Source of the DNA: Octopus vulgaris
Lineage: Eukaryota
Reading direction: 5' to 3'
Length of the DNA stretch: 64,000 bases
Assembly: GCA_951406725.2 (NCBI GenBank)
Contig: OX597842.1
Span: 14,570,001 to 14,634,000 of the forward strand
Of the stretch, positions 36,407 to 39,400 are shown one piece after another. Position numbers: made by a program. Within the stretch, counting starts at the first letter, position 1; each line of letters opens with the position of its first letter.

Positions 36407-39400
36407 TTATATATATATATCTACATAATGGTGTTGGCCATTTGTGGTTGTGTGTCTACGTGTCTGTTTATCTATGGATATGTGTATGCAAGTGTATGAA
36501 AATTTACTAGTAATTCGGTCTCTATATCAAGGACGGTATTTATATTTCAATCATTATCATCATCATCATCATCATCATCATCTCTTCTTTATGGATAGTA
36601 ACAACCTTATATTTTCACCTCTACCTCATATAATATTCATCACTATAAATATCACAACTACCACCATCCCTATCACCATAGTTTTCTTTTCCCCCTTCCC
36701 ACTCATCGTCCTCCTATCGTCCTGGGTTCTAATGACATCAAGGAAATCAAAGCTGACACCTTCCGAAATTTGTCCAGGTTAAAATATCCCTAAATTGAAT
36801 CAGTTTTCTTCTTCAGTATTTCATTGACGATGTCTTTCTAAATCTGTTTTATGTGCACATATTGTATTTAGGCTCCGTCACCCGTCCTTCAAAAGAAGAT
36901 ATTTATTGATCGTGAATTTGAGAGTGTGCGTGTGGGTTCATTTCTGAAATATGGGATATATACAAAGCGCAAATTTACTCTGACCACACTACGGATATTA
37001 CATGTATATTTGTATGTGTGTGTGTGTGTGTGTGTGTGAGCAGTGGTGCGTCTGGTTGTGTGCTTGTGTGTTTGTTTGTGTATAGATGCGGGTATTCGAG
37101 TACATCAAAATATATGTGTAATTAGATCTGGGTATCATCTACATTATTGAAATCTCTATCGTCATAGAATATTAATACTTGTTTCAGTTTTTCTTGTCTT
37201 TACCTTTATTTTCTTCTCCTTCATCTTCTTTTTCGTCTTCTTCCCCTCCTACTCCTATACTTGAGCCTCCTCCTCCTTCTACTATTCTTCTTCTTGTTCT
37301 TCGTTTCGTGTGTGTAAAAATTCTCTTTCTTGAGTTCTTCATAAGAGTTTCTCAATCTCAATCATCCGCTGAGTTCTCTTTTCCTCAAAAATCTCTACAA
37401 TTTAATTCGCCTCAATTAGTGCCGTGATAATTATTGACGTCTCCCTCTCCATCCTCATCACCGTCATTATTCTCATCTTCGTTGTTACCTTTCTCAAACA
37501 TAAACATCGTCAACTTTATCGTCGCCCTCGTCATCATCGTTATCATTGATTACCAAAAAGCACCACGGTAGGAATACTCAACCTCCTGGTCATCCTGATC
37601 ATAGATAACAGACACATTACCATCATCGTCATCATCCTCAATATCAGATCCATATTCACCATTTAAATGCTAATCCCCTATCATTATCATAACAATCAGC
37701 ATTAACAACATCACTCTGATCATCATCACCTCAATATCTTCATCAACTTTACCGCCATAGATTTTTACATTCTGGTTCATTCTCATATTAATGACTGTCA
37801 AGACCAGATATTCTACAACTAAATCTATCAGCACAGGTTTCCGACCTCCTCCTCCTCCTCTCTTCCTTCTTCTCCCTCCTTCGACTTATTGTCATCATCA
37901 TCAACATCATTGTCGACAACGTCCTCTGCAACAATCTAATCGTCATCGTGATTAGATGTTCATCCTTTCCTTCCTGTAACTGTTTACCCAAAATTATGTC
38001 ATAAATGTCTCACAAAATTGCTTCTTAACTCAATTTTACTTTCCAGAATCTTGTATAATAATGATATCCAAGTAATAAAACCTGGCACCTTCCAATATTT
38101 ATCCAGTTTAAGATTACTGTAAGTTGAATCAGTTTTCTTCTTTAGTATTTCATTGTCTAAATCTCGCTCAATCTGTAATGTGAACCCATCTTTCGTTTAA
38201 GCTTCCTCAAGCATCCTTCCAAACCAGAGTTTATTGTTTATGAATTGGAGTGAGTGTGGATCTATTTCTTAAATATTGGATATGCGAGTTCACGATACAA
38301 GATGGAACCCATTTATTGCATGCATGAGCATATGTCTTAGTATTTTTACAATTATACTCCATCCGAACTGTTTGTTGTTTGTGAATCACTGATAATGTTG
38401 TGGGGGGCCATTCTTGGTATTTCGGATATATCAGTGTGTGACAATTGAACGGAGACTTTTAGTGCAAGTTGTATCTGTGCATTTCTGTTATATCTTCTGT
38501 AATGGACTGGAATATCTATGTTTCGAATTTCATCAAAATTGCAGATGAGGGTTGTATTAATGACTGTCAAGACCATATTAATGACTGTCAAGACCACATA
38601 TTCTACAGCTAAATCTATCAGCACAGGTTTCCGACCTCCTCCTCCTCCTCTCTTCCTTCTTCTCTCTCCTTCGACTTATTTTCATCATCATCAACATCAT
38701 TGTCGACAACTTCATCTGCAACAATCAAATCGTCATCCTGATTTGATGTTCATCCATTCCTTCATGTAACTGTTTACCCAAAATTATGTCATAAATGTCT
38801 CATAAAATTGCTTCTTAACTCAATTTTATGTTCCAGAGACTTATCTTGGAATGGCATCACAGAAATCAAAGATGACACCTTCCAATATTTGTCCAGTTTA
38901 ACAGAACTGTAAGTTGAATCAGTTTTCTTCTTTAGTATTTCATTGTCTAAATCTCGCTCTATCTGTAATGTGAACCCATCTTTCATTTAAGCTTCCTCAA
39001 GCATCCTTTCAAACCAGAGTATATTGTTTATGAATTTAAGTGAGTGTGGACCTATTTCTTAAATATTGGATATGCGAGTTCACGATACGAGATGGAACTC
39101 ATTTATTGCATGCATGAGCATATGTCTTAGTATTTTTACAATTATACTCCATCCGAACTTTTTGTTGTTTGTGAATCACTGATAATGTTGTGGAGGGCCA
39201 TTCTTTAGATTTTGGATATATCAGTGTGTGACAATTGAAGGGAGACATTTAGTGCAAGTTGTATCTGTGTATCTCTGTTATATCTTCTGTAATGGACTGG
39301 AATATCTATGTTTCGAATTCAATCAAAATTGCAGATGAGGGTTATTTCCCTCTTTTCACACCCCACAAAAATTGTAATTGTGCCACATGTATCCCATACT

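What the first reader, a model, noticed from the sequence alone, without database searches (positions are those of the whole stretch)
37786..39343. Sister exons C1/C2 are ~28% divergent while their introns are ~4% divergent
Hand count: 20 of 72 exon positions differ, 3 of them clearly synonymous. Only about 9 differences occur in the ~215 nt after the donor (38119-38334 vs 38909-39124). Both exons stay in frame and keep the LRR scaffold (L, N, I, F, L). Exons outpacing introns is the reverse of normal. It points to strong diversifying selection, or to intron homogenisation by gene conversion that spares the exon.
Basis: seen in the sequence. Interest (0 to 1): 0.85.

Follow-up and report, generated by a model that had tools for sequence, protein, structure and literature searches.

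The report
Mosaic sister LRR exons, octopus receptor
Two neighbouring copies of a small exon in an octopus-type receptor gene have almost identical introns but differ strongly in the part that codes for the binding surface, most likely because sequence was exchanged between repeat exons, which is a known way for such genes to vary.

Summary
Two 770-nt units (37784-38553 and 38574-39343, offset 790, no gaps) differ at 35 of 698 intron positions (5.0%) but at 20 of 72 exon positions (27.8%); Fisher p = 8e-9. No other sister pair in the same exon array shows this.

The exons are 72-nt, phase-2 leucine-rich-repeat (LRR) exons. The gene's first exon (signal peptide plus LRRNT) is 78-94% identical to Octopus LRR adhesion-GPCR genes.

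The excess is not spread over the exon:
- 16 of 38 positions differ in the 5' part, plus 2 intron positions just upstream.
- 1 of 26 differs in a conserved core.
- 3 of 4 differ near the 3' end.

All 10 amino-acid changes are at variable LRR positions, including all 6 concave-face positions.

Synonymous divergence is as high as non-synonymous (pS 0.30, pN 0.29, ratio 0.95) and six times the intron value (p = 0.004). Point-mutation positive selection after a young duplication is therefore not the best reading.

I favour a gene-conversion mosaic, retained by selection on the binding face. Its direction is unresolved. This is a new member of a known kind and of moderate interest.

The parts
37784..38553 (+). 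Copy 1 of the duplicated unit: 263 nt of upstream intron, exon C1, and 435 nt of downstream intron.
   Evidence: Gapless match to 38574-39343 at offset 790, with 55 mismatches in 770 nt.
38574..39343 (+). Copy 2 of the duplicated unit, containing exon C2.
   Evidence: Similarity ends abruptly at 39344.
38555..38575 (+). 21-nt extra copy of the start of the unit, at the junction between the two copies.
   Evidence: 100% identical to 37786-37806. It is visible in the alignment.
38047..38118 (+). Exon C1: 72 nt, phase 2 on both sides, one 24-residue LRR (ILYNNDIQVIKPGTFQYLSSLRL).
   Evidence: AG acceptor and GTAAGT donor. Pfam LRR_8 E = 0.0018, below the gathering score, as expected for a single repeat.
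38837..38908 (+). Exon C2: 72 nt, phase 2 on both sides, one LRR (DLSWNGITEIKDDTFQYLSSLTE).
   Evidence: Pfam LRR_8 E = 0.0062. The nearest solved repeats are in TLR3, LGR4/5 and LRIG1, with E of 7e-4 or weaker.
38039..38085 (+). Hyperdivergent block; its partner is 38829-38875. It covers 2 intron positions and exon positions 2-39, which code LRR positions x5 to x17.
   Evidence: 18 of 47 positions differ. Within the exon part, 16 of 38 differ, which equals the median for 23 pairs of unrelated exon types, range 12-21.
38086..38111 (+). Conserved core of the exon (TFQYLSSL).
   Evidence: 1 of 26 positions differs. Pairs of unrelated types differ at a median of 9, minimum 3. A-type sister pairs differ at 0 of 26.
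38112..38115 (+). Small 3' cluster coding LRR positions x2 and x3 (RL against TE).
   Evidence: 3 of 4 positions differ. The same 7-nt tail differs at 3-4 of 7 in the three A-type sister pairs.
10778..10959 (+). Context: first coding exon of the gene (ATG, signal peptide, cysteine-rich LRRNT, donor in phase 2).
   Evidence: Weak Pfam LRRNT match, E = 0.0099. It is 76-94% identical to Octopus vulgaris and O. sinensis proteins.
18313..56809 (+). Context: array of the other LRR exon copies. A0psi 18313; A1 22947; A2 26109; A3 26466; B 35753; psiB 36716; D1 50251; D2 52389; D3 54545; D4 56738. Each is 72 nt. A0psi has a 1-nt deletion and psiB has no splice sites.
   Evidence: Motif scan, sequences, and an nhmmer profile that finds 12 copies and no others.
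61814..61885 (+). Context: a further 72-nt phase-2 exon (YLSNNQIQNYEDGAFLFLPSINQ), the last LRR or cap of the domain.
   Evidence: 95% identical to residues 127-148 of O. vulgaris P0122.

Best explanation
C1 and C2 are two tandem copies of an exon-plus-intron unit. They lie inside the LRR-exon array of an octopus-type gene for an LRR adhesion GPCR. Each exon codes one 24-residue repeat of the extracellular binding domain.

The pair is a mosaic. The introns and the exon core share a recent ancestor, at about 5% divergence. A 47-nt block that codes the ligand-facing residues is as different as in unrelated repeats, at synonymous sites too. That block therefore has a different and older history than its flanks.

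The process that produces such a pattern is templated exchange (gene conversion) between repeat units. Its end points lie in the sequence blocks that all units share: the 3' end of the upstream intron and the exon core.

The direction is unresolved, and I put the two directions close to even:
1. The unit duplicated recently, and the block in one copy was later overwritten from another LRR exon of the family. The overwritten copy is more likely C1, because the C2 block still resembles its relatives B and psiB.
2. The two exons are old, and conversion made everything around the block alike.

In either case selection on the binding face is inferred to have kept two different, intact repeats.

Shown: the counts, the block structure, the raised synonymous divergence and the intact scaffold. 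Inferred: conversion, selection, and use of both exons in mRNA.
For: 1. Exon 20/72 against intron 35/698, p = 8e-9.
2. pS is 0.30 (4 of 13.3 sites) and pN is 0.29 (16 of 55.7 sites), ratio 0.95. Synonymous against intron gives p = 0.004. In codons 1-13, pS = pN = 0.41. At the intron rate only about 0.7 synonymous differences are expected.
3. The excess is one contiguous block, 38039-38085, which includes two intron positions. The core has 1 difference in 26.
4. In the block, C1-C2 = 16/38, the median for 23 pairs of unrelated types. In the core the pair looks like sister copies.
5. Exon and intron give conflicting relationships. In the downstream intron C1-C2 is 0.050 and every other pair among B, psiB, C and two relic units is 0.215-0.302. 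In exon positions 7-38, C1-C2 (13/32) is the most distant pair, and C2 is closer to psiB (8/32) and to B (10/32). In 22-nt windows in mid-exon, C2 differs from psiB at 2-3 positions and from C1 at 5-8.
6. The block is bounded by sequence shared by all unit types. In the 22 nt at -30 to -9, C differs from B at 2 and from A2/A3 at 4. In the 22 nt at 70 to 91 (the last 2 exon bases and the first 20 intron bases), C differs from B at 1.
7. Exchange with a break point in or near an exon is visible elsewhere in the array. A0psi against A3 differs at 26/214 upstream and 6/50 in the first 50 exon positions, then at 18/840 from exon position 50 to +899.
8. Controls of similar or greater age show no exon excess. 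D1-D4 is 4/72 against 50/1117; A2-A3 is 8/72 against 23/280; A1-A2 is 12/72 against 38/254.
9. The scaffold is intact in both copies (p = 0.018 for 20 random changes), and all 6 concave-face variable positions differ (p = 0.026).
10. The pattern is known from tandem duplicates under conversion, namely opsin exon 5 (PMC3924837, passages read).
Against: - No donor for either block exists in the window. The profile search found 12 LRR-exon copies, 10 besides C1 and C2. Seven of those 10 were compared (A0psi, D2 and D3 were not); the nearest to the C1 block differs at 6 or more of 22 positions.
- Protein searches with the two exon-containing reading frames found no protein with a C-type repeat.
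- The synonymous argument rests on four differences.
- By majority vote of seven other exons, both copies carry odd states (C1 10, C2 8, ambiguous 2). A single import therefore needs the ancestral C exon to have been idiosyncratic.
- Homogenisation of both flanks needs two tracts of equal age (5.3% and 4.8%) or one discontinuous tract.
- The duplicated segment is a sub-unit, unlike the older units, which carry an extra upstream region. That argues for a young duplication.
- The 3' cluster is separated from the block by the unchanged core, which a single simple tract does not explain.
- The differences sit almost only at ligand-face positions, which selection alone would also produce.
Confidence: 0.55

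Rival explanations
1. The unit duplicated recently. The two exons then diverged by ordinary point substitutions driven by strong diversifying selection on the ligand-binding face.
For: All 10 amino-acid changes are at variable LRR positions. All 6 concave-face positions differ (p = 0.026) and the scaffold is kept.

Second codon positions differ most: 10, against 5 at first and 5 at third positions.

The differences fall in two clusters that both code the beta-strand face. The 3' tail is fast in all sister pairs of the array.

Sister modules in O. vulgaris P0122 differ at 7 positions. All of these lie in the first 8 or the last 2-3 residues of the module, and the core is identical (read by eye).

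Positive selection was reported for the octopus adhesion-GPCR expansion (PMC6408891, passages read).
Against: The Nei-Gojobori count gives 4 synonymous differences where about 0.7 are expected at the intron rate (Fisher p = 0.004; the Poisson tail, computed by hand, is about 0.005). The ratio is 0.95.

dN would have to run about seven times the neutral rate in both copies.

Two intron positions next to the block also differ.

One codon differs at all three positions (AAT/TGG).

Other pairs of the same intron age show no such burst: D1-D4 is 4/72.
Confidence: 0.2
2. The tandem duplication is an assembly artefact. Two haplotypes of one unit were placed head to tail, so that C1 and C2 are alleles. 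Their exon difference would then be an extreme allelic polymorphism.
For: The 5% divergence without any indel over 770 nt resembles allelic variation in some marine invertebrates. That comparison is recalled, not tested here.

Three D units in the same window are identical or nearly so, so the assembly of repeats here deserves a check.
Against: The window has no N. The junction is seamless and carries a 21-nt microduplication typical of a real rearrangement. Both copies sit in one continuous sequence with unique flanks.

No read data are available to test this.
Confidence: 0.07
3. An untemplated cluster of mutations from error-prone repair hit one exon, or one copy is an unused pseudo-exon drifting freely.
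For: Adjacent multi-base differences also occur in the introns, at 38247-8, 38416-8 and 38530-1. Decayed exon copies exist in the array: A0psi, psiB and two exon-less relics.
Against: Twenty random changes keep the frame and all scaffold residues in only 1.8% of trials.

Neutral drift cannot exceed the intron rate.

The spectrum is mixed (7 transitions and 13 transversions, of several types), not a deaminase-like signature.

Both splice sites are intact.
Confidence: 0.05

Closest known systems
Peak of divergence in exon 5 of the primate red and green opsin genes, between introns kept alike by gene conversion (Teshima and Innan model; review PMC3924837, passages read)
   Same: Tandem duplicates with low divergence in flanking introns and a sharp peak over the few codons that set ligand or spectral specificity. 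The peak is explained as selection resisting conversion.
   Different: Here the unit is a single 72-nt repeat exon within one gene, not a whole gene copy. No population or cross-species data show ongoing conversion. Import of a foreign patch is an equally open direction.
Arrays of 72-bp phase-2 LRR exons: brown-alga ROCO genes and the gonadotropin-receptor LRR exons (PMC11378527, passages read)
   Same: One LRR per 72-nt exon, all introns in phase 2, exon duplication and shuffling, and positively selected sites on the concave face.
   Different: Different organisms and receptor class. Those passages do not report an exon-against-intron divergence contrast between sister units.
Octopus-specific expansion of adhesion GPCRs, some with LRR domains (PMC6408891, passages read)
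   Same: The first exon is 78-94% identical to O. vulgaris and O. sinensis genes. Their products carry LRR plus GPS or 7tm_2 domains. The paper reports tandem clusters and positive selection.
   Different: The paper works at the level of whole genes. The passages I read do not mention the exon-array structure, duplication of exon units or mosaic divergence. Its supplements were not available to me.
Hypervariable toxin exons with conserved introns: conotoxins (PMC3862624, passages read) and snake venom PLA2 (recalled)
   Same: Exons are more divergent than the neighbouring introns among recent paralogues.
   Different: In those families the classic signature is dN well above dS, with dS near the intron value (recalled). 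Here dN is about equal to dS, and both are far above the intron value.
Tetrahymena arrays of 90-bp phase-2 LRR exons (PMC6564038, passages read)
   Same: Tandem exon-plus-intron repeat units in LRR genes. Unequal crossing-over between repeats is proposed as the engine.
   Different: The exon size is 90 bp, the organism is a ciliate, and there is no exon-against-intron contrast.

Membership tests
Typical 24-residue leucine-rich repeat (Pfam LRR_8 type) | Consensus LxxLxLxxNxIxxIxxxxFxxL with the hydrophobic and Asn scaffold present | tested here: met
   Both exons keep L, L, N, I, I, F, L, L.
Typical 24-residue leucine-rich repeat (Pfam LRR_8 type) | Profile match above the curated cut-off | tested here: inconclusive
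   LRR_8 E = 0.0018 (18.4 bits) for C1 and 0.0062 (16.7 bits) for C2. Exons were not joined.
One-LRR-per-exon arrays with 72-nt phase-2 exons | Exon length of 72 nt and intron phase 2 on both sides | tested here: met
   Ten intact array exons and the cap exon at 61814-61885 are 72 nt, with a split Leu codon CT|N or TT|N.
Octopus LRR adhesion GPCR family | N-terminal exon (signal peptide plus LRRNT) homologous to family members | tested here: met
   7 of 8 candidates scored E <= 1. The six hits covering 97-100% of the query are 76-81% identical (E 4e-23 to 4e-20). The seventh, P0128, covers 53% at 94% and 92% by tblastn.
Octopus LRR adhesion GPCR family | GAIN/GPS and 7TM domains in the same gene | not testable with these tools
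   The window ends at 64000, about 2 kb after the cap exon. No such domain was found among the 74 frames scanned: 71 + strand frames of 50 aa or more from three intervals (8.8-18.1 kb, 39.2-45.9 kb, 57-63.8 kb) and 3 minus-strand frames over the finding.
Island of divergence maintained under gene conversion | Low flank divergence with a peak over functional sites | tested here: met
   5.0% against 38% in the 47-nt block.
Island of divergence maintained under gene conversion | Linked neutral (synonymous) sites inside the island also diverged | tested here: met
   pS is 0.41 in codons 1-13 and 0.30 over the exon, against 0.05 in the introns. This rests on only 3-4 differences.
Island of divergence maintained under gene conversion | Independent evidence that the two copies exchange sequence (orthologue or population data) | not testable with these tools
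   No genome of this or a sister species is available. Exchange between other units of the array is indicated.
Accelerated-evolution exons (toxin type) | dN/dS clearly above 1 with dS near intron divergence | tested here: not met
   The ratio is 0.95, and dS is 0.38 against an intron divergence of 0.05.
Mutually exclusive exon cluster | Same length and phase; transcripts using one exon or the other; docking and selector pairing | tested here: inconclusive
   Length and phase are equal. The only inverted repeats in the two units are 16 nt and 81% complementary. No transcript data exist. O. sinensis predicted isoforms differ by single LRR modules, which points to cassette use rather than exclusivity.
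VLR-like germline cassettes for somatic assembly | Cassettes without splice sites beside an incomplete germline gene | tested here: not met
   All intact copies have canonical AG and GT splice sites and a common phase.

The most novel reading that the evidence does not exclude
This octopus-lineage LRR adhesion GPCR may build and keep renewing its ligand-binding surface in the germline in three ways. It duplicates single-repeat exon units. It swaps the ligand-face half between repeat exons. It uses the exons as splicing cassettes. One locus would then yield a family of receptors with different binding faces, a Dscam- or VLR-like solution in a cephalopod sensory or nervous-system receptor. C1/C2 would be a freshly made pair caught in the act.
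Probability: 0.15. Interest if true: 0.7.

Novelty: new member of a known kind. Interest (0 to 1): 0.35.

Why it matters
Octopus adhesion GPCRs with LRR ectodomains form a lineage-specific expansion. They are expressed in suckers, skin and the axial nerve cord (PMC6408891, passages read). How their binding domains diversify is not described in what I could read.

This locus shows the raw mechanics at the level of single repeats:
- exon units are born and die;
- break points of exchange lie in exons;
- one sister pair has had only its ligand-face segment replaced or preserved.

If both exons are spliced in, the pair adds two different binding-surface strands at almost no cost in sequence novelty.

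The case is also a caution for scans. An exon that looks to be under extreme positive selection can instead be a conversion mosaic, and synonymous sites tell the two apart.

Tried and rejected
- **Exon peptide search.** I then used the unaltered stop-to-stop frames that contain each exon plus in-frame upstream intron. The C1 frame gave 9 candidates, none with E <= 10. The C2 frame gave 26 hits with E <= 0.001, all generic multi-repeat LRR proteins at 31-53% identity. I read 5 of the 26; none has the C-type core.
- **Donor search inside the window.** An nhmmer profile of 8 exons found the 12 known copies and nothing else above noise. No copy matches either block.
- **RNA families.** Rfam over 34500-41000 gave 9 matches below gathering score, none within 37784-39343. 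Most lie in the TA/TG-rich tracts at 36.2-36.4 and 40.5-40.7 kb.
- **Inverted repeats for splice-choice pairing.** Only 16-nt arms at 81% complementarity.
- **Minus strand.** Three minus-strand frames across the units gave no Pfam family.
- **Polarising the differences.** Introns gave C1 14, C2 14, ambiguous 4, of 32 positions. Three downstream differences beyond 38480 were left out. The exon vote is not decisive because variable positions have no stable consensus.
- **Old two-exon block.** I considered that B-psiB and C1-C2 are copies of an old two-exon block. C2 resembles psiB, but psiB has its own upstream region like the other old units, and C1 does not pair with B. I left this open.
- **Left out.** The joined product was therefore never compared with full-length relatives.
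- **Not checked.** No eukaryotic genome, transcript or read data were available. Paper supplements were closed; the tables of PMC6408891 may list this gene.
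Full report
**What is there**

The window is AT-rich animal DNA (GC about 36%) with no N. On the + strand it carries an array of 72-nt exons, each coding one 24-residue leucine-rich repeat (LRR). Every exon starts with the last base of a split Leu codon and ends with its first two bases, so every intron is in phase 2.

A profile built from eight of these exons finds twelve copies and no more:
- A0psi at 18313, with a 1-nt deletion;
- A1 at 22947, A2 at 26109 and A3 at 26466;
- B at 35753;
- psiB at 36716, with no splice sites;
- C1 at 38047 and C2 at 38837;
- D1 to D4 at 50251, 52389, 54545 and 56738.

Two further units, at 46605-46990 and 48590-48935, keep the intron but have lost the exon.

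Each single exon peptide matches Pfam LRR_8 below the cut-off, as one repeat must (E from 1.5e-4 to 6e-3). The nearest solved repeats to the C2 peptide are in TLR3, LGR4/5 and LRIG1.

**The gene**

A frame at 10763-10960 gave a weak LRRNT match. Read in full, positions 10778-10959 form a first coding exon with ATG, a signal peptide, a cysteine-rich cap and a phase-2 donor.

Searched on its own, this exon found 7 proteins among 8 candidates:
- two Octopus vulgaris proteins named adhesion GPCR G6-like, which carry LRR plus 7tm_2 or GPS domains;
- four O. sinensis isoforms named LRRC4-like; these six are 76-81% identical to the query;
- an O. vulgaris hypothetical protein that is 92-94% identical over the part it covers.

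A further 72-nt phase-2 exon at 61814-61885 is 95% identical to the last repeat of the O. vulgaris protein P0122.

A transposon reading frame at 6229-7326 has its highest identity among the named hits (77%) in O. bimaculoides.

I conclude that the window comes from an octopus or a close relative. It holds the 5' half of a member of the LRR-bearing adhesion GPCR family. An octopus-specific expansion of such genes is in print, with tandem clusters, positive selection and expression in suckers, skin and axial nerve cord (PMC6408891, passages read). The GAIN and 7TM parts would lie beyond the window. I searched exon by exon only.

**Check of the observation**

The two units 37784-38553 and 38574-39343 align without a gap at offset 790. 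A 21-nt extra copy of the unit's start sits at the junction (38555-38575, identical to 37786-37806).

| Segment | Mismatches |
|---|---|
| Upstream intron | 14 of 263 |
| Exon | 20 of 72 |
| Downstream intron | 21 of 435 (9 of them in 38119-38334) |

Exon against intron gives p = 8e-9. The densest 47 nt hold 18 differences, against a maximum of 14 in 20,000 random placements.

**Controls within the same array**

No other sister pair shows the effect.

| Pair | Exon differences | Intron differences |
|---|---|---|
| D1-D4 | 4 of 72 | 50 of 1117 (4.5%, the same age as the C introns) |
| A2-A3 | 8 of 72 | 23 of 280 |
| A1-A2 | 12 of 72 | 38 of 254 |
| A1-A3 | 12 of 72 | 49 of 263 |
| D1-D2 | 0 of 72 | 0 of 1199 |

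Exon counts are ungapped. Intron counts come from gapped alignments.

**Anatomy of the excess**

The excess is not spread over the exon. Positions 38048-38085 hold 16 differences in 38 nt. Two more lie at 38039-38040, in the intron. The next 26 nt (TFQYLSSL) hold one. Positions 38112-38115 hold three.

In the 38-nt part, C1 and C2 differ exactly as much as unrelated exon types do (median 16, range 12-21, 23 pairs). In the core they look like sisters: 1, against a median of 9 and a minimum of 3 for unrelated types.

The ten amino-acid changes fall at LRR positions x2, x3, x5, x7, x8, x10, x12, x13, x16 and x17. All six positions of the xxLxLxxNx strand differ (p = 0.026), and no scaffold residue is touched. 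Twenty random substitutions achieve that in 1.8% of trials. That these strand positions form the concave ligand face is textbook LRR structure, recalled and not tested here.

**Selection or history?**

A Nei-Gojobori count gives 4 synonymous differences on 13.3 sites (pS 0.30) and 16 non-synonymous on 55.7 sites (pN 0.29), a ratio of 0.95. In codons 1-13 both are 0.41.

At the intron rate about 0.7 synonymous differences are expected. Synonymous against intron gives p = 0.004. This pS lies in the range of B against C (0.20-0.40), two units whose introns are 22% apart.

So the block looks old or foreign, not merely fast at the protein level.

The exon and intron also give conflicting relationships. 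In the downstream intron C1-C2 is 0.050 and all other pairs among B, psiB, C and the two relics are 0.215-0.302. In exon positions 7-38, C1-C2 is the most distant pair (13 of 32), and C2 is nearest to psiB (8) and B (10). In mid-exon 22-nt windows C2 differs from psiB at 2-3 positions and from C1 at 5-8.

**Mechanism**

The block is bracketed by sequence that all unit types share: the last 30 nt of the upstream intron on one side and the exon core and donor region on the other. There, C differs from B at only 1-2 of 22 positions. Such islands of identity are where exchange between diverged repeats can start and end. This is an inference from general knowledge of conversion.

Exchange with a break point in or near an exon is visible in another pair. 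A0psi and A3 are about 12% apart upstream (26 of 214) and in the first 50 exon positions (6 of 50). They are 2% apart from exon position 50 to +899 (18 of 840).

I therefore read C1/C2 as a conversion mosaic. Two directions remain open.

- **Import into a young duplicate.** Points in favour:
  - The 770-nt segment is a sub-unit, unlike the older units, which carry an extra upstream region.
  - The junction microduplication looks like a single rearrangement.
  - The two flanks are equally diverged (5.3% and 4.8%).
  - C2's distance from B and psiB in the block (25-31%) is what its introns predict, which leaves C1 as the altered copy.
  - C1's N-D-I-Q motif is unique among the window's exons but occurs in two modules of the O. 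sinensis relative (by eye).
- **Old exons with homogenised flanks.** Points in favour:
  - Both copies deviate from the family majority (10 and 8 sites).
  - The total exon divergence (28%) equals that among the old units.
  - The pattern has a published precedent in opsin exon 5 (PMC3924837).

I cannot separate the two directions without other genomes.

**Role of selection**

Selection is still needed, because both exons are intact repeats that differ at the ligand face.

The 3' tail is fast in every sister pair of the array (3-4 of 7 nt in the three A pairs), while the core is frozen (0 of 26 in A pairs whose introns are 8-19% apart).

Sister modules in O. vulgaris P0122 show the same picture at the protein level.

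O. sinensis predicted isoforms differ by single 24-residue modules. This suggests cassette use of such exons. These are database predictions, not transcripts that I saw.

**Rivals**

- Pure point-mutation selection is weakened by the synonymous excess, by the two intron changes at the edge of the block, and by the rate it demands.
- A false duplication of two haplotypes cannot be excluded without reads, but the junction is seamless.
- An untemplated mutation cluster or a drifting pseudo-exon is unlikely, given the intact scaffold and splice sites and a mixed substitution spectrum of 7 transitions and 13 transversions.

**Novelty**

Three things are already in print:
- 72-nt phase-2 LRR exon arrays with selected concave sites (PMC11378527);
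- divergence islands between homogenised introns (PMC3924837);
- the octopus adhesion GPCR expansion (PMC6408891).

Two further papers on mosaic divergence under conversion I saw only as search listings with the start of the abstract (PMC3728101 and bioRxiv 10.1101/2025.10.29.685298).

My five literature searches turned up no description of this locus, or of exon-unit mosaics in cephalopod receptors. They cover open-access text only, and supplements were closed.

I rate this a new member of a known kind.

Noticed in passing
49319-57911: Four tandem units of about 2.14-2.16 kb, each with one LRR exon. D1 and D2 show 0 differences in 1199 intron nt plus the 72-nt exon. D1 and D3 show 2 in 1196. 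D4 is 4.5% away. This is either a very recent triplication or a repeat that the assembly should be checked for.
   Followed up: partly
18063-19212 against 26216-27365: A0psi and A3 are about 12% apart upstream (26/214) and in the first 50 exon positions (6/50). They are only about 2% apart from exon position 50 for the next 850 nt (18/840). This marks an exchange break point in or next to the exon. A0psi also has a 1-nt deletion that breaks its frame.
   Followed up: partly
36716-36787; 46605-46990; 48590-48935: Decayed members of the B/C unit type. psiB keeps a recognisable repeat but has lost both splice sites. Two further units keep the downstream intron but have no exon. Exon units in this array are born and die.
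   Followed up: partly
Exon positions 39-64 of A1, A2 and A3 (for example 26148-26173): The exon core is identical (0 of 26) among the three A exons although their introns are 8-19% apart. Its first 15 nt are also shared with the C exons. This is conservation at nucleotide level, synonymous sites included. The cause is unknown; a splicing signal or repeated conversion are possibilities.
   Followed up: no
10778-10959 and 61814-61885: The first coding exon (signal peptide plus LRRNT) and a final 72-nt repeat or cap exon of the same gene. Both are close to Octopus LRR adhesion GPCR proteins. The O. vulgaris relative P0122 has only two D-type repeats between these two parts, so most array exons here may be extra, optional or unused.
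   Followed up: partly
Proteins P0123, P0124, P0125 (O. sinensis): Three predicted isoforms of one gene differ by the presence or absence of single 24-residue LRR modules, as if single repeat exons were cassettes.
   Followed up: no
10-2652; 3012-8076; 59761-60556; 41509-41989: A 2.6-kb (ATA)n tract. Fragments of retrotransposon reading frames on both strands (zf-RVT matches). A decayed mariner-type element (HTH_48 and Transposase_1 matches in different frames). A 107-nt tandem repeat of 4.5 copies.
   Followed up: no
9927-10115: A stretch just upstream of exon 1 is 73% identical at protein level to residues 45-107 of the O. vulgaris hypothetical protein P0128. This suggests that P0128 marks the orthologous locus and that its gene model reads through non-coding sequence.
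   Followed up: no
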